Assembly: GCA_003345555.1 (NCBI GenBank) | Contig: PRDJ01000039.1 | Location: 13,530 to 77,529, forward strand | Origin: Candidatus Thorarchaeota archaeon | GTDB lineage: Archaea; Asgardarchaeota; Thorarchaeia; Thorarchaeales; Thorarchaeaceae | DNA: 64,000 nt | Direction of reading: 5' to 3' | In this document: piece by piece, positions 45,474 through 52,462 of the stretch | Layout: each line of letters opens with the position of its first letter | Numbering within the stretch: the first letter of the stretch is position 1 | Position numbers and translations under genes: made by a program | The notes under the pieces: generated by a model | The model's database searches: none | What the model was told of the DNA's origin: nothing | The model's input: only the letters and a program-made list of their open reading frames with translations

Positions 45474-46238
45474 TTGGTGCGAGAAGCAGTTCCCAAGCCA
45501 GAGACACTTCAGGAAGTGGATGACTACCTCAAGAAGGTCAGATCAACAACGGTTTTTGATGTGGCCAATCGGTTCAACATTCGTATGAGTGTTGCTCGGA
45601 GTATATTGGCGGAAAGAGAGGCAAACGGCAGTCTTGTTCCGTACGTGCGCGATGGCGGATTCGTAGCATACTCAACTCCAGCTGAAATGGAGAAACGTCA
45701 GTCGGGTCGTGCCGTCCTTATCGCTGATGCACTCGAGGAGGTCGCATCATCTGTCACTCATGAGAGTCTTATGACTGACCAGGTGGAAACAGCGTTGGCA
45801 GCAGCTGCCAGCATGGCAGTGGTGAAGCCGGGCAAGATTGCACGCCAGAGACGAGAGTTTGGCGAAAGAAAAGAGAAGACAAGGGATCGGAGACCCGAAG
45901 TCCTCGTGCAGCCTTTGGAAGGCGAAGGCGAGACTGGGCGAACGCTGGAACCAGAAAGGGGATTCACTCGGCCGGTTGCTCCGAAGGAGACTCCCCGGGA
46001 GGTAGCGCCGAAGACCGCTATCGTATCGCCAGAGGCCCCACAAGCGAGTTCCCGTTCGAAGAAGACTCCATCCAAGCCCGAAAAGCCCGCCAGACCTGCG
46101 GCGAAGCCAAAAGAGAAAGCCGGGCCCAAGAAGAAGCCTGAGGCCGCAGCGAAGAAGCCTGCCAAGCCTGCGCAGAAGGCTCAAGTCAGGAAGAAACCAT
46201 CTTCCGAAAAGCCGACCAAGACCGTCAAGAAGAAGTAG
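45474..46238 (+). CDS. rps25e: ribosomal protein S25e-like winged helix with ~160-aa Lys/Pro/Ala-rich C-terminal extension
   Basis: VRSTTVFDVANRFNIRMSVARSILAEREANGSLVPYV aligns with the S25e core ([33 protein letters not shown]). The in-frame upstream codons encode ISKKKWGKPAAK, matching the S25e KKKWSKGK N-terminus. C-terminal tail KPARPAAKPKEKAGPKKKPEAAAKKPAKPAQKAQVRKKP. Confidence 0.6.
   Translation: MVREAVPKPETLQEVDDYLKKVRSTTVFDVANRFNIRMSVARSILAEREANGSLVPYVRDGGFVAYSTPAEMEKRQSGRAVLIADALEEVASSVTHESLMTDQVETALAAAASMAVVKPGKIARQRREFGERKEKTRDRRPEVLVQPLEGEGETGRTLEPERGFTRPVAPKETPREVAPKTAIVSPEAPQASSRSKKTPSKPEKPARPAAKPKEKAGPKKKPEAAAKKPAKPAQKAQVRKKPSSEKPTKTVKKK
45990..46235 (+). repeat. low-complexity Lys/Pro/Ala-coding tract (S25e-like gene tail)
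   Basis: Reiterated aagcc/gccaag/cctgc units encoding KPAKP/AKKP repeats. Confidence 0.6.
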
Positions 46239-46402: not shown

Positions 46403-47047
46403 TCACTTCATGCCAGCTATTTGCCTATCAAGATCCTCAAGCTGCGAATCCAGTTCGGCTTCCTTGGTCTTGTAGTCCTCTTCTGGAATGTATCCTCTCA
46501 TGTAGTCAAAGCGCAAGTCAGTCAAGGCAGCCTTCAAACGATCCTTCTGTTGCAGAAGGAAGTCGAGTTGGTCGCTAGAACCTGCAGGCGCTGCTGGAGC
46601 TGGAGCAGGAGCTACCTTTGCTGCGGGTGCAGCAGGCGCTGACTTCGCTGGGGCCGGAGCTAGTGCCGATTTCGCGGGAGCGGGTGCTGGCGCAGGCTTT
46701 GGCGTAGGTGCTGGAGCTGCTTTTGGAGTTGCAGCAGCCTTCGGAGGAGCTGTCGGTGCAGCCCTCGGTGGCGCAGTCGGGGCAGCAGCCTCTGCCGACA
46801 ATGAGCTTGGTTGTACTGCCTCCATAGTCTCCATGTTACGCCTAAGAGTGTCAATCTGGTCAGCAATCTGAGTAAAGCTATCATTGATGGTCTGATTAAT
46901 CGCGGTCTTCATCCTTGCCAAGTTCTCTGCCAGCTGATCGGCAAGCTTCTTTGTCTCCGCGACCTTGTTAGCAAAGCTTTCTATCGCCCTGAGCTTCTGG
47001 TTCAGCTCTTCCATTTGTCTTTGAATAGCGCTAAAATCGAAGGCCAT
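46403..47047 (-). CDS. coiled-coil protein with Pro/Ala-rich low-complexity linker
   Basis: N- and C-terminal amphipathic helices flank an (AP/PA/AK)n stretch (46560..46800, GC-rich low-complexity DNA). Confidence 0.5.
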   Translation of the reverse strand: MAFDFSAIQRQMEELNQKLRAIESFANKVAETKKLADQLAENLARMKTAINQTINDSFTQIADQIDTLRRNMETMEAVQPSSLSAEAAAPTAPPRAAPTAPPKAAATPKAAPAPTPKPAPAPAPAKSALAPAPAKSAPAAPAAKVAPAPAPAAPAGSSDQLDFLLQQKDRLKAALTDLRFDYMRGYIPEEDYKTKEAELDSQLEDLDRQIAGMK

Positions 47048-47144
47048 GTATACTCACCTGATGGACAGCCTCTGTGCATGAAAGTCTGGGCTGTCGTTCT
47101 TAACCTTTGTCGTCATCAACTCCGTCACCTGCGCGTATGGGAGC

Positions 47145-48017
47145 CTACGCAGGCACCGGTTTGGCTTCACCCTTTCCTTCAAGGATGGCTTTCCGGATGA
47201 TTTGAATGAGGCGGTCTCTATAGGAGATGTCTATCGCGACGAGCTCGTAAGTGGCGATTCCGAGAATCTGGCCCACTCTCTCAGGAGTCAGAGCAGTGGG
47301 CAGGTCTTGCTTGTTGGCGATGCCAATTACCTTGGCTTCAGGAACCTCCTCTTTGACCAGAGACACCAACTTCTTGCTACGCAAAACGTTCTCAAGGGTA
47401 CTATCGGTCACAATGATGACAACTTGGGCATTCGCTATCATCTTGGCCCAGAGGATACTAAACCGCGATTGACCCGCAAGGTCCCAGAGTACTATGTTCG
47501 CATTTTGGACTTCGTCCGGGAGCTTCTTTATCGATACACCGATTGTAGGATCATGTACCAGTGGAAGTGTCTCTCCCCTGAGCAGATGCAGTGTGGTGGT
47601 CTTGCCAACGCCTGCGTATCCAAGAATCGCCACCTTCACCATTGTCACTGCTATCTCGTCGACCTTTGCATCAAGACCTTCCAAGGGGAGGTTCGCTTCT
47701 GCAAGGGTTGCGAAGTCCTTTATGAAGGCATCAACTAGCTGCGTCATCCGCTCCTCTATCTGAGCTGTGTCGTCGGCCTTGTCGGCCACAAACATGAATA
47801 CGAAGTCGCGTCGAGCAGCATAGAATATCCTTGTCCCTGAGAAACCCATGTACTCTGTCTTTCCCTCCAGGTCAACTGAGGAAATGAAATGAGCGAAATT
47901 CACTAGGAACTCAACCAGTCCCTCTCCTGATTCGCTCTTGGCGTATTCTTTGGAATATATGACATTGCTCTGTTGTCCAAGTATGTATAGGCTTCTAATC
48001 ATTGCTCGCCACTCCAC
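47145..48017 (-). CDS. longin/roadblock-like N-terminal domain fused to a Ras-superfamily small GTPase
   Basis: GTPase motifs: G1 GYAGVGKTT, switch-I PTIG, G3 WDLAGQ, G4 ANKQD. The first ~125 aa (IRSLYILGQQSNVIYSKEY...FVFMFVADKADDTAQIEERMTQLVDAFIKDF) follow the longin/SRX/roadblock profilin-like pattern (compare Sec22/Ykt6 ...VVIADNEYPSRVAFTLLEKVLDEF). Confidence 0.7.
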   Translation of the reverse strand: MEWRAMIRSLYILGQQSNVIYSKEYAKSESGEGLVEFLVNFAHFISSVDLEGKTEYMGFSGTRIFYAARRDFVFMFVADKADDTAQIEERMTQLVDAFIKDFATLAEANLPLEGLDAKVDEIAVTMVKVAILGYAGVGKTTTLHLLRGETLPLVHDPTIGVSIKKLPDEVQNANIVLWDLAGQSRFSILWAKMIANAQVVIIVTDSTLENVLRSKKLVSLVKEEVPEAKVIGIANKQDLPTALTPERVGQILGIATYELVAIDISYRDRLIQIIRKAILEGKGEAKPVPA

Positions 48018-49117
48018 TTCTCGGCAAGTATCTCAAGATGTCTTCTGGCAATCTCAGGGGTTATCTCGTCGTTAGACAGCTTATCTGCTATCAGCGGCAG
48101 AACAAACTCTGGGATAAATGATTCCATGATTGGGTTGGTCACCAAAGCCCAGATTCCTTCTCCGATTTGTGCCGCAACATTTTCAGACTCTAAGCTGAAT
48201 AGCGCGTTTTGAACGATTTCTTCCTGAAGCAGCGTTCTGTTCGATATCTCTCTCACTGAAAGCGGCTCATCTCGCAGAGAAGTTAGGACCTTGTATTCGA
48301 TCTTCTTGGAAAGCACTCTCGCGATCTTTTCCCTGTCTTCGACCAGCGGTGAATTGGGGTCGTCGCTGGGTATCGTGGGGTTGTATCCTCGGCTCGGAGG
48401 TGGCGGTGCGAAGAACTCAGCAACTCGCTGTTGGTACTGAGCGGCGAGCCCGGGCATGGATTTCCTAGCTTTCGTGATGGCTTCAACTGGCGGGGCCCTG
48501 TAGGCAAATACGTCCTTTACTAGAAACACGGCCTCGATGCCTTTTCCTATGATTTCGACGTTGACGATACCAGAGTCCATCAAAGGTAAGATGGACTCCC
48601 GCAAATCCACGGAGTCGCTCTGGACTTGGCTCTTGAGCCAAATCGAGAGCTTCGCAGCTCTCTCGACTCCTTCGTTCTCAATCTTTTCAAGTACCAATCC
48701 TGATGATGGTGTCAGGAATATCTGGGCATATCTCTGTTCTTCGCTAGCTTCCCCTAGGCTGCTGTGGCTCTCGAGTATCTCATCAAGGTGAACCAGCTCA
48801 GGATTCTCGACCATGAGCTCAATTATCAGTCTCCCCATCCCTGGTATTTCTTCCTTAAGCCCTTCATAGTCCTCGTCAGCGGTCAAGACGAAGCATGCCA
48901 TCCAGCGGGGACGCGCTCTGTCTACAAAGGAGACTATCCGCACGTTGTCGATTTCACTGTACCTTAAGTTCTCCTTCTCTTCCTTCTCATGTTCATAGAA
49001 TATCAAGTTCAGGATCTTCTCGTTCAGCGAGAAAGAGAAGGGATGTCTCTTCTCGACAACAAAACCTTGGTAGTCGTCTAGGTGGACCACGAATATTGCT
49101 TGTGGCATGCCATGCAC
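47999..49117 (-). CDS. protein with a longin/roadblock-like N-terminal domain and a C-terminal winged helix
   Basis: AIFVVHLDDYQGFVVEKRHPFSFSLNEKILNLIFYEH...WMACFVLTADEDYEGLKEEIPGMGRLIIELM has a longin-like beta-beta-alpha pattern. C-terminal SVREISNRTLLQEEIVQNALFSLESENV is wH-like. Overlaps the GTPase gene start by 19 nt (operon). Confidence 0.45.
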   Translation of the reverse strand: MHGMPQAIFVVHLDDYQGFVVEKRHPFSFSLNEKILNLIFYEHEKEEKENLRYSEIDNVRIVSFVDRARPRWMACFVLTADEDYEGLKEEIPGMGRLIIELMVENPELVHLDEILESHSSLGEASEEQRYAQIFLTPSSGLVLEKIENEGVERAAKLSIWLKSQVQSDSVDLRESILPLMDSGIVNVEIIGKGIEAVFLVKDVFAYRAPPVEAITKARKSMPGLAAQYQQRVAEFFAPPPPSRGYNPTIPSDDPNSPLVEDREKIARVLSKKIEYKVLTSLRDEPLSVREISNRTLLQEEIVQNALFSLESENVAAQIGEGIWALVTNPIMESFIPEFVLPLIADKLSNDEITPEIARRHLEILAEKWSGEQ

Positions 49118-49197: not shown

Positions 49198-49698
49198 TCA
49201 GCTCTGTGAATCGTGAGCGTTTCGCTTTTCGAGATGCTTGACGCAGTTGATTCTGCCGAGGTTGTCAAGTATCCAGCAGTGTTCACACACAAGTTTCCCG
49301 CACTGAACACAGGTCCCAATGTAGTGATCGGGGCCATTCATCACGACCTCAAACCGGTTCCGGCTATGGTGAGCGCAGTATGGACGGCCGCAGGCGCTGC
49401 ACTCAACAGATTTTGCCTCGTTGCACAAGCAGCATGTCCTTTCCCGTTCAGAGGAGGCTTTCATGCCTTTTCCGTGTGGTGAAGGTACTCGTCGCTGTTC
49501 CTTTTCAGGTAGCTCGAGGGAACCGGGGCAATCAGAGTACCGGCAAGGGCCGACGCCCTTATAGCGGCCACATATCCCGCAGTAGGGGTCGAGGAGTTCG
49601 CTGTCTCTTTTCATAGCATTAGATAACCTCGCACCGTGACGGGACGACTCGTTTGACACGGTGTCGCCTTTTCGAGTCACTGGCTGGACGTCTAACAA
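49198..49698 (-). CDS. Cys-rich multi-zinc-finger protein
   Basis: At least four CxxC pairs (CGICG, CCLCN..CSACG, CVQCG..CEHC); the start may instead be the internal MKRDSEL. Confidence 0.4.
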   Translation of the reverse strand: MLDVQPVTRKGDTVSNESSRHGARLSNAMKRDSELLDPYCGICGRYKGVGPCRYSDCPGSLELPEKEQRRVPSPHGKGMKASSERERTCCLCNEAKSVECSACGRPYCAHHSRNRFEVVMNGPDHYIGTCVQCGKLVCEHCWILDNLGRINCVKHLEKRNAHDSQS

Positions 49699-49721: not shown

Positions 49722-52118
49722 TTGCCTCGCACTTTGGGGCAAGGGACCATTATGGACCACCACCATCAGCGGACTATTGTCCCAGTGGCAGCCATTAGTA
49801 CTGTTGAGATGGTAACCGGTCCACCTGTTCAGAAGCCAATCCCGGAAGACTACGTACTAGCGGATTTCGTTTTGAGGGCTATTGACAGCAAAGAGGGTCG
49901 GGATCTGGAATTCGTTTTGAAGGCATATCTGGATTTTCTCGTCATGCCCACCGGGTCCCCCGGCAAGTGCTTCTTTGTGGAAATGCGGGGCCTGACATCA
50001 GCCTCAGTTCCCGTACTCCAAGAATATGACTTGGATGAACTAATCAGGAAAGTGCACCATTCCGAAACACAATCACAGTTGGTTGCAGCCATCAAGGAGA
50101 CAGGCGTCTATGCGCGTGGGATTACTGGAGTCGAAGAGATTCTCCTCAGGGGCGTCGTTTCCAATCCGACTGCATCGAGCCTAGCCCAGCTACTTGCTTG
50201 GCCTATGAAGGAACAGGCCGAGACCTACTCTATGCTATTTCCGTCAACGATTGACACCTCGTATTGCACTTCGGTTCGCAACACTCTAAGGAATCTATCT
50301 GAGTTCACCCATAAAGCGGAGACGGGTCTACCGTGGTTGGTTGACGCTCTGAGAATGAAGGCTCGTGACATCATGGCTGCTCTGGAAGGCGATCTGTCTC
50401 CGAAGTTGAGTCGGCTTGACCTCAGGATATCTGCCCTGCGCAGGGAGATTTCTGGTATCGAGTCCAAGACCAAGCAGATACCAAGGTCTGAACGACACGG
50501 GCCTAAGGAGGCCGAAACAAGAGACCTGCTCAGGGCTCGTCAAACCGCCCTAGACAGAGACCTCAAGAGACGGGACAAGACGGTGTCGGAATCCGAGACG
50601 CTCAAGAGCGAGCTCAGTGAGACACTGAATGCAGTCCTCTCAGAGCTTGAAGTCTCTCATGAAATGATACTGGCTTTCCGAAAGAGCATCGACTCCATAG
50701 AGGCAACTGTGGGATCTCTTGATGTGCCCGAAGATGGTATCCGACTCCTTGTTCCTGTCATCATCGCTGGGCTATCAAAGAAGGGACGACTTGACATGGT
50801 CGTATACCCTCCCTCGATACTAATTCCCGGCACCCAGAAGGCTGGCCGCCGCAAAGACTTCACGGATTCACTGATATCGGCATCAGAGGAACTTGCACAG
50901 ATTGCTGCATGGTGTGAAGAACAGATATCAAATGATGTCACTCTGAAGAAGTCAATCCGTGACTCTTCGGAGGTTCGCAATCTTCTTGCCCTGAAGAACA
51001 CAAGAGCCGCAATAGGGGAAGGAGTGAAGCTACTGTTGGCCGACGGTTTCGCGAATGAGCCGGCGGTCAATCAGATTGAAACACTTCTTTCAGGCGTGCC
51101 AGAGCATTCACTGACCTTGGATGCAACTCCGCCGGCTGGTACTGAGCTGATTCCGGGCAAGGCATCAGACTGTACGCTAATCCTTCACGTTCGCGATGAA
51201 AACGATACTCCGGTGAACCATCCGGTCCTTGAAACAGCTGACATCAAAGCCGAAGGCAATCAACAAGGAGTCATCAGGGTCCGTCTTTGGGCTGGTCTTC
51301 ACAGGGCGAGCATTTCAGGAGCGGGCCACAGAAGCAAATCCATCGAGTTCAGCCTCCAATCAGGTACCGATGTTGTTATCCCTGTTGCTCTGTCTCCCCT
51401 TTCACGTGAGGAAGAGATTGAGAAGGAACTTGACCAACTAGTGGGTCGGGCGGAGCGCATTGACCAGGTTCGGAAGCGGCTGGCGGATGCATTTGGCGCA
51501 CAGGGCGAAACGATGCTCAGCATTCCGGCGTATCGGAGTTCCCTAGTTGAGCTCCTAGTGGACCTCGGATACGATCCGGAATCATGGATTTCAGAAGCAA
51601 AGAAGAAGAAAGGAATGGTCAAACGCTTTCTGAAACGAGACGACCGGGCGGATGCGCTCAGAAGAGATATCCTCCGAATTGCCGAGGAGTCAAAGCGATC
51701 AGGAGGTATCATGCTCTTTTCGGGTCTATTGGTCCAGCTGGACGCCAAGGGCTGGACAACAGACATGAATGAGGTGACGTCCATCATAGGCGGTTTGTCG
51801 CGCGATGGACTGATAGAGGGTCTAGCGACAATCGAAGGAGGTGCACGCCTAGTGAAATTCGTGCCAGTGGGGCTGACTGATGATCCTCAGAAAGTGCTGA
51901 GCCTCGCTGCAGAGAAGGATGGTCACCTGACCCCCGAAGACGTTGTGCTGAGCCTTGGGTGGACAGAGGAAAGAGTGAGAAACGCGCTGAATCTACTTGT
52001 CGCCAATGGAGTTGCGAAGGTCCAAAAGAGCTACTCGCAAAGTACTCAGTACTGGTTCCCGGGGCTTAGAATGCGCCCCGCGAGAGAACAGGAATCGCAA
52101 AAAGATGAGACAACCTAG
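49722..52118 (+). CDS. large protein (798 aa) whose C-terminal ~160 aa is an EAP30/Vps22-like tandem winged helix (ESCRT-II-like)
   Basis: The C-terminus aligns with human SNF8/Vps22 (GGIMLF..NEVTSIIGGLSRDGLIEGLATIEGGARLVKFVP..QKVLSLAAEKDGHLTPEDVVLSLGWTEERVRNALNLLVANGVAKVQ..STQYWFPGL versus GGLITL..DDLIRAIKKLKALGTGFGIIPVGGTYLIQSVP..VLQLAEKNGYVTVSEIKASLKWETERARQVLEHLLKEGLAWLD..AHYWLPALF). The N-terminal 600 aa hold a coiled-coil region and have no match I know. Confidence 0.6.
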   Translation: MPRTLGQGTIMDHHHQRTIVPVAAISTVEMVTGPPVQKPIPEDYVLADFVLRAIDSKEGRDLEFVLKAYLDFLVMPTGSPGKCFFVEMRGLTSASVPVLQEYDLDELIRKVHHSETQSQLVAAIKETGVYARGITGVEEILLRGVVSNPTASSLAQLLAWPMKEQAETYSMLFPSTIDTSYCTSVRNTLRNLSEFTHKAETGLPWLVDALRMKARDIMAALEGDLSPKLSRLDLRISALRREISGIESKTKQIPRSERHGPKEAETRDLLRARQTALDRDLKRRDKTVSESETLKSELSETLNAVLSELEVSHEMILAFRKSIDSIEATVGSLDVPEDGIRLLVPVIIAGLSKKGRLDMVVYPPSILIPGTQKAGRRKDFTDSLISASEELAQIAAWCEEQISNDVTLKKSIRDSSEVRNLLALKNTRAAIGEGVKLLLADGFANEPAVNQIETLLSGVPEHSLTLDATPPAGTELIPGKASDCTLILHVRDENDTPVNHPVLETADIKAEGNQQGVIRVRLWAGLHRASISGAGHRSKSIEFSLQSGTDVVIPVALSPLSREEEIEKELDQLVGRAERIDQVRKRLADAFGAQGETMLSIPAYRSSLVELLVDLGYDPESWISEAKKKKGMVKRFLKRDDRADALRRDILRIAEESKRSGGIMLFSGLLVQLDAKGWTTDMNEVTSIIGGLSRDGLIEGLATIEGGARLVKFVPVGLTDDPQKVLSLAAEKDGHLTPEDVVLSLGWTEERVRNALNLLVANGVAKVQKSYSQSTQYWFPGLRMRPAREQESQKDETT

Positions 52119-52462
52119 AGCCAATCTTCCTCCTCGTCTTCGCTGCTCTCTTCCTCTTCTTCTTCGTCTTCCTCTAACAAATCCTCTTCGGTCTCTTCTT
52201 CAATCTCCTCTTCCGGCTGTTCTTTAGCTGCGGGGCTGATCACTTCTTCTTCCTCTTCTTCTTCATCCTCGAAGAGGAAAGTTTCCTCATCTGGTTCTTC
52301 TTCACCCGGACGCTCCTTCTTGACTTTCCTCGGTTTCTGAACGGCAAGACAGATCTCATCGTCCGGGTCAAGAAATTCGCACTCTGGACAACACTCGCCC
52401 TTGTGAGTGCAGGTATAGAAGGCTCCACATTTCCGGCAGCATTTGAGCTCTTGAGTCAACAT
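52115..52462 (-). CDS. zinc-ribbon protein with hyper-acidic C-terminal tail
   Basis: N-terminal CCRKCG...CPEC ribbon; the C-terminal 60 aa are almost entirely E/D (EEEEEEEESSEDEEEDWL). Convergent, with a 4-nt overlap of the ESCRT-II-like gene. Confidence 0.5.
   Translation of the reverse strand: MLTQELKCCRKCGAFYTCTHKGECCPECEFLDPDDEICLAVQKPRKVKKERPGEEEPDEETFLFEDEEEEEEEVISPAAKEQPEEEIEEETEEDLLEEDEEEEEESSEDEEEDWL

What the first reader, a model, noticed from the sequence alone, without database searches (positions are those of the whole stretch)
46403..49117. Operon of a longin/roadblock-domain-Ras-like GTPase fusion, a second longin-like/winged-helix protein and a coiled-coil Pro/Ala-rich protein
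Three co-oriented minus-strand genes, overlapping by 19 nt or separated by ~100 nt.
- 47145..48017 has a complete Ras/Rab-like G-domain (GVGKTT, PTIG, WDLAGQ, NKQD) preceded by a ~125-aa domain. That domain's secondary-structure pattern and sequence resemble longin/SRX/roadblock regulatory domains.
- The upstream gene, 47999..49117, begins with another longin-like module.

In eukaryotes, longin and roadblock domains are the building blocks of small-GTPase GEFs and platforms (TRAPP, Mon1-Ccz1, DENN, SRalpha-SRbeta, Ragulator). A prokaryotic longin-protein plus longin-GTPase pair therefore looks like a self-contained GEF/GTPase switch module. The attached coiled-coil/PA-rich protein is a possible effector or scaffold.

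Roadblock- or longin-fused GTPases have been mentioned for Asgard genomes, but this three-gene arrangement has not, to my knowledge, been characterised.
Basis: partly seen in the sequence, partly recalled or inferred. Interest (0 to 1): 0.8.

Follow-up and report, generated by a model that had tools for sequence, protein, structure and literature searches.

The report
Asgard longin-GTPase switch gene trio
A Thorarchaeota genome carries a tightly linked trio of genes – a longin-plus-winged-helix protein that looks like the eukaryotic NPRL2/DENN regulators, an Arf-like GTPase with its own longin domain, and a small coiled-coil protein – that is conserved in two classes of Asgard archaea and offers a rare, ready-matched "regulator + GTPase" pair for testing how eukaryote-style GTPase control began.

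Summary
Three co-oriented minus-strand genes are present. The first two overlap by ATGA (4 nt, not 19).

- **Gene 2** (285 aa) is a longin domain fused to an Arf-family-like G domain. Foldseek matches sigma-adaptin, zeta-COP, VAMP7 and Sec22b at E about 1e-5. Pfam Arf scores E 5.5e-20.
- **Gene 1** (369 aa, AF2 pLDDT 89) is a longin domain plus two winged helices. Its best eukaryotic structural matches are NPRL2/NPRL3 of GATOR1 and DENND1A, but these matches are weak.
- **Gene 3** (214 aa) is a helical N-terminal region, then a 69% Pro/Ala linker, then a conserved helical hairpin.

Genes 1 and 2 are adjacent in 60/60 Thorarchaeia species, and gene 3 follows in 55/60. The whole neighbourhood is syntenic within that class. 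The decisive evidence is that the same trio recurs in Jordarchaeales with different flanks.

The building blocks are already published: longin-GTPase fusions, and NPRL2-like proteins in Thor MAGs. I did not find the conserved operon in the literature I searched.

GEF versus GAP is unresolved. Neither longin domain has a conserved arginine finger.

The G domain is about 95% identical across the class, against 65% for GluRS.

Verdict: new variant of a known kind, moderately interesting.

The parts
47999..49108 (-). Gene 1 ('UP369', 369 aa plus stop): a longin domain, two winged-helix domains and C-terminal helices. It is an NPRL2/DENN-type longin protein.
48755..49108 (-). Longin domain of gene 1 (aa 1-118), carrying the family-wide N-terminal motif MPxGxxxxxWDDxxGxxVxAKYP. 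In Thorarchaeia the motif reads ...HLDDxxGF...
   Evidence: Secondary-structure order is bb-a-bbb-a-a. G15 and P23 are invariant across six Asgard lineages. There is no conserved Arg in the b4-b5 hairpin.
48407..48754 (-). Winged helix 1 plus two helices of gene 1 (aa 119-234).
48350..48406 (-). Proline-rich linker of gene 1, PPPPxxGYNPTxPxDDPNSP (aa 235-253). It is specific to Thorarchaeia and nearly invariant there.
   Evidence: pLDDT here is low (56-73) in an otherwise confident model. The columns are invariant in the Thor alignment. The segment is deleted in homologues from the other classes.
48002..48349 (-). Winged helix 2 plus the C-terminal helical pair of gene 1 (aa 254-369).
   Evidence: Model elements H254-E331 and H336-365. 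Sequence similarity to ArsR/SmtB wHTH is weak, E 1e-3 to 1e-2. The recognition helix is acidic or neutral.
47999..48002 (-). ATGA start/stop overlap between gene 1 and gene 2, which suggests translational coupling.
   Evidence: The sequence reads ...GAGCAATGATTAGA.... The same 4-nt overlap appears in the called genes of related contigs.
47145..48002 (-). Gene 2 (285 aa plus stop): a longin domain fused to an Arf-family-like small GTPase.
   Evidence: Pfam Arf E 5.5e-20, Roc 1e-14, Ras 2e-12. By sequence, the best PDB hits are Arl1 and Arf1, E about 1e-15. More than 1000 homologues were found. The Jordarchaeales orthologue is 45% identical over the full length.
47643..48002 (-). Longin domain of gene 2 (aa 1-120).
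   Evidence: Foldseek PDB matches sigma-adaptins, zeta-COP, mu-adaptin N-terminus, VAMP7 and Sec22b at E 1.5e-5 to 1e-3, probability 1.0, TMt 0.55-0.73 over about 120 columns. This part of the model has pLDDT about 75. There is a faint Pfam Clat_adaptor_s hit. Jordarchaeales paralogues pass the Pfam Fuz_longin_1 threshold.
47148..47642 (-). G domain of gene 2 (aa 121-285): P-loop GYAGVGKTT, switch I PTIG, WDLAGQ, NKQDLP and VAID.
   Evidence: Alignments. Median identity is 94.9% across 59 Thorarchaeia species, against 65% for GluRS in the same loci.
46403..47047 (-). Gene 3 ('CC214', 214 aa plus stop): an N-terminal helical region (aa 1-80), a Pro/Ala-rich linker (aa 81-160) and a conserved C-terminal helical hairpin (aa 161-214, DQLDFLLQQKDRLKAxLTDLRFDYMRGYIPEExYK...).
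   Evidence: Composition. It lies downstream of the GTPase in 55/60 Thor loci. The C-terminal hairpin has median identity 82%. hhalign against the third gene of the Jordarchaeales and Hodarchaeota clusters gives probability 77.5%, E 1.9e-5. The Pfam CdvA coiled-coil hit is below threshold, 23.3 bits against 30.

Best explanation
This is a conserved Asgard small-GTPase switch module made of three proteins that are produced together.

- **Gene 1** encodes a regulator or partner built like the eukaryotic longin regulators NPRL2/NPRL3, FLCN and DENN. It has an N-terminal longin domain followed by winged-helix protein-interaction domains.
- **Gene 2** encodes the switch itself, an Arf-family-like G domain. 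Its usual N-terminal membrane helix is replaced by a sigma-adaptin/Mon1-type longin domain.
- **Gene 3** encodes a small coiled-coil hairpin protein that acts as adaptor or effector.

The most likely mechanism follows the way every characterised eukaryotic longin regulator works, namely as a longin-longin dimer that docks a G domain. In this reading, gene 1's longin domain pairs with the GTPase's own longin domain to form the platform. That platform sets or reads the nucleotide state of the attached G domain. The winged helices and the coiled-coil protein then link the complex to downstream partners. In Jordarchaeales and Hodarchaeota that link may include a membrane, through an N-terminal amphipathic helix on the small protein.

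Shown here: the folds, the domain order, intact GTPase motifs, the ATGA coupling, and conservation of the trio in two Asgard classes.

Inferred: physical association, longin-longin pairing, the direction of regulation (GEF, GAP or scaffold), and the role of gene 3.
For: **Folds**
- Gene 1 model has pLDDT 89, with a longin domain and two winged helices.
- Its best eukaryotic matches are NPRL2/NPRL3, Npr2, DENND1A, Lst4 and TRAPPC2.
- The gene 2 N-terminus is a longin fold: Foldseek E about 1e-5 and probability 1.0 to sigma-adaptin, zeta-COP, VAMP7 and Sec22b.
- Paralogues pass the Pfam Fuz_longin_1 threshold.

**G domain**
- Arf-like with all G motifs and the catalytic Gln.

**Linkage**
- ATGA overlap between genes 1 and 2.
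- Gene 1 sits directly upstream of gene 2 in 60/60 Thorarchaeia species genomes. Gene 3 is downstream in 55/60, and is missing only at contig ends.
- The same order, UP then 282-284-aa longin-GTPase then about 106-aa coiled-coil protein, occurs in two Jordarchaeales loci with 13-29-nt gaps and with flanks unrelated to the Thorarchaeia flanks.
- In Hodarchaeota the gene 1 homologue is directly followed by the small coiled-coil protein.
- A second, solitary longin-Arf paralogue in Jordarchaeales lacks both neighbours. The linkage is therefore specific to this orthologue.
- The third genes are related: hhalign probability 77.5%, E 1.9e-5.

**Selection**
- The G domain is about 95% identical across the class, against 65-70% for GluRS and NTP-transferase. 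This fits a hub protein contacted on many surfaces.

**Winged helices**
- They are acidic, which argues for protein binding rather than DNA binding.
Against: - No interaction was tested, because no multimer prediction tool was available.
- A mirror-tree analysis gave no specific signal for co-evolution of the two longin domains: partial r 0.18, lower than with an unrelated neighbour.
- The two longin domains show no detectable sequence relationship to each other (hhalign probability 0.2).
- Similarity of gene 1 to NPRL2/3 is structural only and weak (Foldseek E about 1e-3, TM about 0.2 because domain orientations differ). There are no Pfam NPR2/NPR3 hits.
- Neither longin domain has a conserved arginine in the b4-b5 hairpin. 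A GATOR1/FLCN-type GAP mechanism is therefore unlikely, and the catalytic direction is unknown.
- Within Thorarchaeia the whole 10-gene neighbourhood is syntenic, so adjacency there is weak evidence on its own.
- More distant gene 1 homologues sit beside, or are fused to, giant surface-type proteins and have no GTPase next to them. The family is not an obligate GTPase partner.
- The G-domain part of the gene 2 model is poor (pLDDT below 50 around the P-loop).
Confidence: 0.55

Rival explanations
1. Cis-regulated targeting GTPase, analogous to SRX-SRbeta. The fused longin domain folds back on the switch region of its own G domain, as the SRX domain of SR-alpha binds SR-beta-GTP. Gene 1 protein is then an effector or cargo adaptor that reads the state, not a regulator of it.
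For: The G domain is Arf/SR-beta-like: Pfam SRPRB is above threshold in paralogues at 27.8 bits against 25, and E 4e-5 in the Jordarchaeales orthologue. The longin domain is of the sigma-adaptin/SRX-like class, which binds Arf-type GTPases in eukaryotes. Gene 1 homologues occur in other lineages without an adjacent GTPase. There is no co-evolution signal between the two longin domains.
Against: The window protein scores below the SRPRB threshold (16.1 bits against 25). No SRX structure appeared among the top 50 Foldseek hits. The ATGA coupling and the conserved order suggest a stoichiometric complex, not a loose effector relationship.
Confidence: 0.2
2. A GATOR1/folliculin/C9orf72-type GAP. 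Gene 1 protein, alone or dimerised with the GTPase's longin domain, supplies an arginine finger and switches the G domain off.
For: The top eukaryotic structural matches of gene 1 are NPRL2, Npr2 and NPRL3. The conserved N-terminal motif WDDxxG, just before strand 2, lies where GAP-type longins carry their WD and GP motifs (and PMC12290439 as read). Liu et al. describe an NPRL2-like family in most Thor MAGs.
Against: No Arg is conserved in the b4-b5 hairpin, the position of NPRL2 R78 (that position is from my own memory of the NPRL2 sequence). This holds for gene 1 across classes and for the GTPase longin domain. The Pro of the GP motif is replaced by F, A, T, L or M. There is no sequence-level hit to NPR2, NPR3 or folliculin families.
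Confidence: 0.1
3. Gene 1 encodes a transcription factor: an ArsR-like winged helix-turn-helix with a longin-like sensor domain. It regulates the operon, and there is no protein complex with the GTPase.
For: WH2 has weak sequence similarity to ArsR/SmtB repressors, E 1.6e-3 to 2e-2. Some database records call homologues 'ArsR family regulator' or 'winged helix-turn-helix domain-containing protein'.
Against: Both winged helices and their recognition helices carry negative or neutral net charge across the family. The same module is fused to the C-terminus of giant LamG-containing proteins, which is implausible for a DNA-binding regulator. The overall architecture matches NPRL2/3, whose C-terminal winged helices mediate protein contacts.
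Confidence: 0.08
4. The adjacency is inherited gene order without functional coupling.
For: The whole neighbourhood from GluRS to NTP-transferase is collinear in nearly all Thorarchaeia loci. The mirror-tree analysis is uninformative.
Against: The trio recurs in Jordarchaeales with unrelated flanking genes, and the gene 1 plus gene 3 pair recurs in Hodarchaeota. There is a 4-nt ATGA overlap. The solitary paralogue lacks both neighbours.
Confidence: 0.07

Closest known systems
GATOR1 subunits NPRL2/NPRL3 (yeast Npr2/Npr3) acting on RagA/Gtr1
   Same: Gene 1 has an N-terminal longin domain followed by winged-helix-containing C-terminal domains in a protein of about 370 aa. NPRL2/NPRL3 are its best eukaryotic structural matches. 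It is paired with a small GTPase that carries a dimerisation-type alpha/beta domain.
   Different: There is no detectable sequence homology and no conserved arginine finger. Only the Gly of the GP motif is kept. No DEPDC5 equivalent is present. The GTPase is Arf-like with an N-terminal longin domain, whereas Rag has a C-terminal roadblock domain.
Asgard longin-GTPase fusions and 'NPRL2-like' longin proteins (Liu et al. 2020/2021, bioRxiv 10.1101/2020.10.19.343400; Tran et al. 2024, PMC10933270)
   Same: [quoted passage not shown]
   Different: As far as I could read them, those papers do not describe the two genes as an operon with a third coiled-coil gene. Tran et al. state that in MK-D1 GTPase genes are generally not in operons with longin or roadblock genes. 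I could not confirm that gene 1 is the exact asCOG they mean, because no supplements are held.
SR-alpha SRX domain with SR-beta (eukaryotic SRP receptor)
   Same: A longin-like domain is partnered with an Arf-family-like GTPase. In relatives, SRPRB Pfam scores are near or above threshold.
   Different: Here the two are fused in one chain. There is no SRP-receptor NG domain and no transmembrane anchor. The window protein scores below the SRPRB threshold.
Tri-longin Rab GEFs (Mon1-Ccz1, Fuzzy-Inturned, HPS1-HPS4) and DENN-domain GEFs
   Same: In these systems a longin heterodimer is the catalytic platform for a small GTPase. Jordarchaeales paralogues of gene 2 pass Pfam Fuz_longin_1. DENND1A, BLOC-3 and Fuzzy-Inturned appear among the structural hits of gene 1.
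   Different: There is one longin domain per protein, not three. There are no central or downstream DENN domains. The GTPase substrate is Arf-like and covalently attached to one of the longin domains.
MglA-MglB (bacterial and archaeal roadblock-GTPase pairs)
   Same: It is a prokaryotic operon that couples a Ras-superfamily GTPase with an alpha/beta platform-domain regulator.
   Different: The fold here is longin, with the helix order of sigma-adaptin and VAMP7, not roadblock. The G3 motif is the canonical DxxGQ. The best sequence matches are Arf and Arl, not MglA.
CdvA / ESCRT-I steadiness-box helical hairpins
   Same: The C-terminal 55 aa of gene 3 form a predicted helix-turn-helix hairpin with a sub-threshold Pfam CdvA coiled-coil match. 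Makarova et al. 2024 (PMC10936438) describe such hairpins as recurring archaeal adaptor elements.
   Different: The score is below the Pfam cut-off (22-23 bits against 30). There is no PRC barrel and no ESCRT-III or Vps4 genes nearby. The Jordarchaeales-type homologues give only generic coiled-coil hits.

Membership tests
Longin domain fold (gene 2 N-terminus) | A five-stranded sheet with the order b1-b2-a1-b3-b4-b5-a2-a3, and structural superposition on known longin domains. | tested here: met
   DSSP order is E2-8, E14-19, H26-42, E49-54, E57-64, E67-74, H79-96, H110-120. Foldseek matches sigma-adaptins, zeta-COP, VAMP7 and Sec22b at E 1.5e-5 to 1e-3, probability 1.0, TMt up to 0.73. Caveat: the model has pLDDT about 75 in this region and is poor elsewhere.
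Longin domain fold (gene 1 N-terminus) | The same strand and helix order, and structural superposition on known longin domains. | tested here: met
Arf family (Pfam PF00025; Arf/Arl/Sar/SR-beta plus Asgard ArfR) | Sequence match above the curated threshold, with G1-G5 motifs including WDxxGQ and NKxD. | tested here: met
   Pfam Arf scores 72 bits against a cut-off of 22.3. By PDB profile search the best hits are Arl1 and Arf1, E about 1e-15. The motifs are read.
Arf family (Pfam PF00025; Arf/Arl/Sar/SR-beta plus Asgard ArfR) | An N-terminal amphipathic helix coupled to the interswitch toggle. | tested here: not met
   The N-terminus is a 120-aa longin domain, with no amphipathic helix directly before the G domain. 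The interswitch toggle itself cannot be tested here.
Arf family (Pfam PF00025; Arf/Arl/Sar/SR-beta plus Asgard ArfR) | Phylogenetic placement inside the ArfR/Arf clade rather than in the Asgard-only ArfL group or the RagGtr group (Vargova et al., bioRxiv 10.1101/2024.02.28.582541). | not tested
   No reference tree could be built with the sequences available. Only relative HMM scores are available: Arf 72-85 bits, Ras 47-59, Gtr1_RagA 15-29.
Rag/Gtr GTPases | An N-terminal Gtr1/RagA-type G domain followed by a C-terminal roadblock dimerisation domain. | tested here: not met
   Pfam Gtr1_RagA scores 14.7 bits against a cut-off of 22. The domain order is reversed and the extra domain is longin, not roadblock. 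Relatives only just reach the cut-off, at 22-29 bits.
GATOR1 NPRL2/NPRL3 (and FLCN/SMCR8-type GAP longins) | Architecture of an N-terminal longin domain plus a C-terminal domain containing winged helices, with structural similarity. | tested here: met
GATOR1 NPRL2/NPRL3 (and FLCN/SMCR8-type GAP longins) | A catalytic arginine finger in the longin domain (NPRL2 R78, FLCN R164, SMCR8 R147). | tested here: not met
   No Arg is conserved in or next to the b4-b5 hairpin across the family. The same is true of the GTPase's own longin domain: R64 is conserved only within Thorarchaeia. My mapping of R78 to the b4-b5 hairpin comes from memory of the NPRL2 sequence.
GATOR1 NPRL2/NPRL3 (and FLCN/SMCR8-type GAP longins) | The GP motif immediately before strand b2 (PMC12290439). 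| tested here: inconclusive
   A Gly at that position (G15) is invariant, and in most lineages it is preceded by WDD. The following residue is F, A, T, L or M, never Pro.
GATOR1 NPRL2/NPRL3 (and FLCN/SMCR8-type GAP longins) | Sequence-level homology (Pfam NPR2/NPR3/Folliculin, or PDB sequence hits). | tested here: not met
   There are no such hits in Pfam at E up to 0.1, and none in a PDB profile search at E up to 10.
Tri-longin Rab GEFs (Mon1/Fuzzy/HPS1; Pfam Fuz_longin_1) | A match to Fuz_longin_1, and three consecutive longin domains. | tested here: not met
   The window protein has no Fuz_longin_1 hit. Jordarchaeales paralogues score 28-34 bits against a cut-off of 26.1. All have only one longin domain.
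MglA/MglB | An MglA-type G domain (non-canonical G3, intrinsic Arg) with a roadblock-fold partner. | tested here: not met
   DxxGQ is canonical. The best sequence matches are Arf and Arl. Both partner domains are longin folds.
CdvA coiled-coil domain (PF18822) | A score above the Pfam cut-off, plus a PRC barrel and an ESCRT-III/Vps4 genomic context. | tested here: not met
   The score is 22.1-23.3 bits against a cut-off of 30. There is no PRC barrel, and no cdvB or cdvC genes lie in the neighbourhood.
ArsR/SmtB transcriptional regulators | A wHTH with a basic recognition helix and wing, and a family-level sequence match. | tested here: not met
   Only weak PDB profile hits, E 1.6e-3 or worse. 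There is no Pfam hit above threshold. The recognition helices and wings have net charge -1 to -2. DNA binding itself cannot be tested here.

The most novel reading that the evidence does not exclude
The trio is a minimal, self-contained prokaryotic ancestor-type of the eukaryotic longin-dimer GTPase regulators (GATOR1, folliculin, C9orf72-SMCR8, Mon1-Ccz1).

In this reading, one longin partner is still covalently attached to its Arf-like G domain. The other partner, NPRL2/C9orf72-like and carrying a WDxxG motif, is a separate subunit. A steadiness-box/CdvA-like hairpin protein couples the switch to membranes or to ESCRT-like winged-helix machinery, which in Thorarchaeia may be the neighbouring 798-aa EAP30-like protein.

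The near-invariance of the G domain across the class would then mark it as a central cellular hub, comparable to Ran or Arf1 in eukaryotes.
Probability: 0.15. Interest if true: 0.85.

Novelty: new variant of a known kind. Interest (0 to 1): 0.58.

Why it matters
Asgard genomes encode dozens of small GTPases and dozens of longin and roadblock proteins. Tran et al. (PMC10933270) point out that gene layout almost never shows which regulator goes with which GTPase.

This module is an exception. An NPRL2/DENN-type longin protein is translationally coupled to a longin-Arf-like GTPase, and a conserved third partner follows. The arrangement is maintained in two Asgard classes.

That yields three small soluble proteins that can be expressed and tested directly for binding, for nucleotide exchange or hydrolysis, and for membrane recruitment. 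Such experiments address whether longin-dimer control of GTPases, the logic behind GATOR1, folliculin, C9orf72 and Mon1-Ccz1, already operated before eukaryotes.

The roughly 95% identity of the G domain across a whole class also suggests that this is a core cellular switch in Thorarchaeia rather than an accessory gene.

Tried and rejected
- **AF2 model of the GTPase.** The alignment was too uniform, since the G domain is nearly invariant. The result was mean pLDDT 63.5 and a badly modelled P-loop region. Only the longin part was used.
- **hhalign of the two longin domains against each other.** No similarity (probability 0.2).
- **Arginine-finger idea.** R64 of the GTPase longin domain sits at the b4-b5 hairpin and is more than 90% conserved in Thorarchaeia. 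It is Ser, Asn or Thr in Jordarchaeales orthologues and paralogues, so I rejected it. The Arg residues in the gene 1 hairpin (R64, R66, R68) occur only in the closest relatives.
- **Mirror-tree partial correlations** among the three proteins and controls. They are dominated by residual phylogeny, and the unrelated Big798 correlates as well as anything. Uninformative.
- **afdb50 fold library.** Unavailable.
- **Klinger et al. 2016 and the Liu et al. supplements.** Not held. I could not confirm the asCOG or ArfL assignment.
- **Pfam scan of the Jordarchaeales-type small proteins.** Only generic coiled-coil noise.
- **The Odin 136-aa gene downstream of the gene 1 homologue.** It shows no similarity to the GTPase longin domain.
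- **PDB profile search with the broad gene 1 family.** No longin, NPRL or DENN sequence hits, only weak ArsR-type winged-helix hits.
- **tRNA and Rfam scans of the window.** Both empty.

Full report
**1. Observation**

ORF listing confirms three co-oriented minus-strand ORFs at 46403-47047 (214 aa), 47145-48017 and 47999-49117. Homologues of the second and third are 283-285 aa and 369 aa. The real starts are therefore the ATG at 48002 and the ATG at 49108.

The sequence ...GAGCAATGATTAGA... shows that the stop of the upstream gene and the start of the GTPase gene share ATGA. The overlap is 4 nt, not 19. The 97-nt spacer before the third gene ends in GGTGAgtatacATG.

The window is from a Thorarchaeota genome. 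The proteins are 99-100% identical to cluster representatives whose clusters also hold RDE13970.1 and RDE13971.1 of a Thorarchaeota MAG.

**2. The GTPase (gene 2)**

- Pfam places residues 127-283 in the Arf family (72 bits, E 5.5e-20), ahead of Roc and Ras. Gtr1/RagA and SRPRB are below threshold.
- A profile search of PDB sequences gives Arl1 and Arf1 as the best matches, at about 1e-15.
- All G motifs are intact: GxxGVGKT, PTIG, WDLAGQ with the catalytic Gln, NKQDLP and VAID.

The AF2 model was poor overall (pLDDT 63.5) because the alignment is almost invariant in the G domain. Residues 1-120 are modelled at pLDDT about 75, with the longin strand and helix order.

Foldseek places this part on sigma-adaptins, zeta-COP, the mu-adaptin N-terminus, VAMP7 and Sec22b. 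Values are E 1.5e-5 to 1e-3, probability 1.0 and TMt 0.55-0.73 over about 120 columns. This agrees with a faint Pfam Clat_adaptor_s hit.

Paralogues in Jordarchaeales pass the Pfam Fuz_longin_1 threshold, at 28-34 bits against 26.1. The N-terminal domain is therefore a longin domain, not a roadblock domain and not half a G domain.

**3. The upstream protein (gene 1)**

It has no Pfam or NCBIfam family. AF2 with 49 homologues gives a confident model: pLDDT 89, pTM 0.86. The domains are:
- a longin domain (aa 4-114);
- a winged helix (aa 123-205) plus two helices;
- a low-confidence proline-rich linker;
- a second winged helix (aa 254-331) plus a helical pair.

Foldseek against the PDB ranks NPRL2/NPRL3 chains of GATOR1 first, aligned over the full length. 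E-values are only 1e-3 to 1e-2, and TM-scores are low because the domains are oriented differently.

The winged helices are acidic, including their recognition helices, so protein binding is more likely than DNA binding. Sequence-level similarity exists only to ArsR/SmtB-type HTH domains, and it is weak.

**4. The third protein (gene 3)**

Residues 1-80 are helical. Residues 81-160 are 69% Pro+Ala.

Residues 161-214 form a helix-turn-helix hairpin that is 82% identical across Thorarchaeia. Its only database signal is a sub-threshold CdvA coiled-coil match and a sub-threshold GvpG match. I do not file it under CdvA.

**5. Conservation of the arrangement**

A scan of species-representative genomes returned 60 loci, nearly all labelled Thorarchaeota.
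- Gene 1 lies directly upstream of gene 2 in 60/60.
- Gene 3 lies downstream in 55/60. The five misses are at contig ends.

The whole stretch from GluRS to NTP-transferase is collinear in that class, so adjacency there proves little. The informative evidence comes from outside the class.

A profile search of 1.8 billion representatives found 195 members of the gene 1 family. They occur in Odin-, Jord-, Loki-, Hel-, Hod- and Njordarchaeota.

| Lineage and loci | Arrangement |
|---|---|
| Jordarchaeales, two loci | Gene 1 homologue, then a 282-284-aa longin-Arf-like GTPase (45% identical over the full length) after 13-29 nt, then an about 106-aa coiled-coil protein. Flanking genes unrelated to those in Thorarchaeia |
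| Hodarchaeota | Gene 1 homologue directly followed by the small coiled-coil protein, with no GTPase between |
| Jordarchaeales, second paralogue | Solitary longin-Arf paralogue with neither neighbour |
| Njordarchaeota, Loki, two unassigned metagenome contigs (L070, L071), partly Odin | Gene 1 homologues beside, or fused to the C-terminus of, giant LamG/CarboxypepD_reg-containing proteins |

The small proteins align with the C-terminal hairpin of the Thorarchaeia gene 3 (hhalign probability 77.5%, E 1.9e-5). They carry an N-terminal MG(L/I)xxKxxxxFK amphipathic segment.

The trio is thus a specific, conserved sub-context of a broader family.

**6. Mechanism**

Every characterised eukaryotic longin regulator works as a longin-longin dimer that docks a G domain. 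This is established knowledge and is summarised in PMC10933270 and PMC12290439.

The simplest reading is this:
- The longin domain of gene 1 pairs with the longin domain fused to the G domain.
- The resulting platform controls or reads the nucleotide state.
- The winged helices and the hairpin protein connect the complex to partners or to a membrane.

Translational coupling fits a 1:1 complex.

I could not test binding. A mirror-tree analysis was uninformative and did not single out the two longin domains.

GAP versus GEF remains open:
- The GAP-type longins carry an arginine finger and a GP motif.
- Gene 1 keeps an invariant Gly at the GP position, preceded by WDD in most lineages. That resembles the WD..GP of C9orf72 as I remember it.
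- It never has the Pro, and it has no conserved Arg in the b4-b5 hairpin.
- The GTPase's longin domain also has no class-spanning Arg.
- A GATOR1-type arginine-finger GAP is therefore unlikely. A GEF, scaffold or non-catalytic partner role is more likely.

**7. Comparison with the literature**

[quoted passage not shown] - Tran et al. show longin-GTPase architectures by AF2 in MK-D1. They note that these were annotated as Arf from sequence but look Rag-like in structure, and that GTPase genes are generally not in operons with longin genes.
- Vargova et al. define the Asgard GTPase groups ArfL, ArfR, RagGtr and RasL. I could not place this protein among them.
- Full-text searches for NPRL2 plus Asgard, and for longin plus Asgard plus GTPase, found no description of this operon.

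The components are therefore known. The conserved three-gene module, its presence in two classes and the matched pairing appear to be new observations. I rate it a new variant of a known kind.

**8. A striking side result**

Across 59 Thorarchaeia species the G domain is 94.9% identical (median) to the window protein. The comparison values are 63% for its own longin domain, 49-57% for gene 1, 65% for GluRS and 70% for the NTP-transferase in the same loci. That degree of constraint is typical of hub proteins contacted over most of their surface.

**9. Verdict**

Interest is moderate (0.58). It is not surprising to an Asgard specialist, but it is a practical handle on an open question.

Noticed in passing
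window 47148-47642 (-), and loci L004-L063: The G domain of the longin-GTPase has median identity 94.9% (range 89-98%) across 59 Thorarchaeia species. GluRS is 65% and the NTP-transferase 70% in the same loci. The domain is far more constrained than housekeeping enzymes.
   Followed up: partly
window 49722-52118 (+): A 798-aa protein is transcribed divergently from the cluster and is conserved next to it in 53/60 Thorarchaeia loci. It has a coiled-coil middle and a faint Pfam EAP30/Vps36 (ESCRT-II tandem winged-helix) match at aa 607-765 (E 7e-3, below threshold). It is absent from the Jordarchaeales loci.
   Followed up: partly
window 49198-49698 (-): A Cys-rich 166-aa ORF lies 89 nt upstream of gene 1 and is co-oriented with it. 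It has several CxxC pairs and a faint ANCHR-like B-box/zf-HIT hit. It was detected in 42/60 Thor loci at about 36% identity. It may belong to the same transcription unit in Thorarchaeia, but it is not part of the Jordarchaeales trio.
   Followed up: partly
window 48350-48406 (-), aa 235-253 of gene 1: A nearly invariant proline-rich motif, FFxPPPPxxGYNPTxPxDDPNSP, lies in a predicted disordered linker. It is present only in Thorarchaeia and is deleted in Jord, Odin, Hod and Njord homologues. It looks like a short linear binding motif.
   Followed up: no
L032 7964-8713 (+); a similar about 900-bp insertion in L037, L039, L044 and L048: In some Thorarchaeia species a co-oriented 249-aa gene sits between the GTPase gene and the coiled-coil gene. 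It encodes an N-terminal Zn-ribbon followed by several hydrophobic stretches that look like transmembrane helices.
   Followed up: partly
P0272, P0280, P0281, P0309, P0313; loci L068, L070, L071, L064: The longin-plus-two-winged-helix module of gene 1 is fused to the C-terminus of 1300-2500-aa proteins, three of which have significant (and two more only faint) hits to LamG, CarboxypepD_reg or DUF2341 (P0272 has no Pfam hit). In Loki-, Njord- and Odinarchaeota it is otherwise encoded immediately next to 1469-4495-aa proteins. This is a second, unexplained context for the family.
   Followed up: partly
P0329 (Helarchaeota, 1020 aa): The gene 1 module is fused N-terminally to a SIR2_2 domain and TPR repeats. 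SIR2_2 and TPR are domains I associate with defence/NTPase-type signalling proteins.
   Followed up: no
L072 5001-5888 and L074 1283-2188: Jordarchaeales carry a second, solitary longin-Arf-like paralogue of 295-301 aa. Its N-terminus passes the Pfam Fuz_longin_1 threshold. It always sits between an ATP-synt_F gene and a radical-SAM/DUF8061 gene.
   Followed up: partly
window 45474-46238 (+): A ribosomal protein S25e-like N-terminus (Pfam below threshold) is followed by an about 140-aa tail rich in Lys, Pro, Ala and Glu. The tail is conserved as a feature in Thor loci, where the protein is called at 306-311 aa.
   Followed up: no
window 52115-52462 (-): A 115-aa protein has an N-terminal CxxC...CxxC zinc ribbon and a long poly-Glu/Asp tail. 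It is conserved between GluRS and the 798-aa gene in 45/60 Thor loci.
   Followed up: no
window 1-64000: ARAGORN finds no tRNA gene in the 64-kb window, and no Rfam family reaches its gathering threshold.
   Followed up: yes
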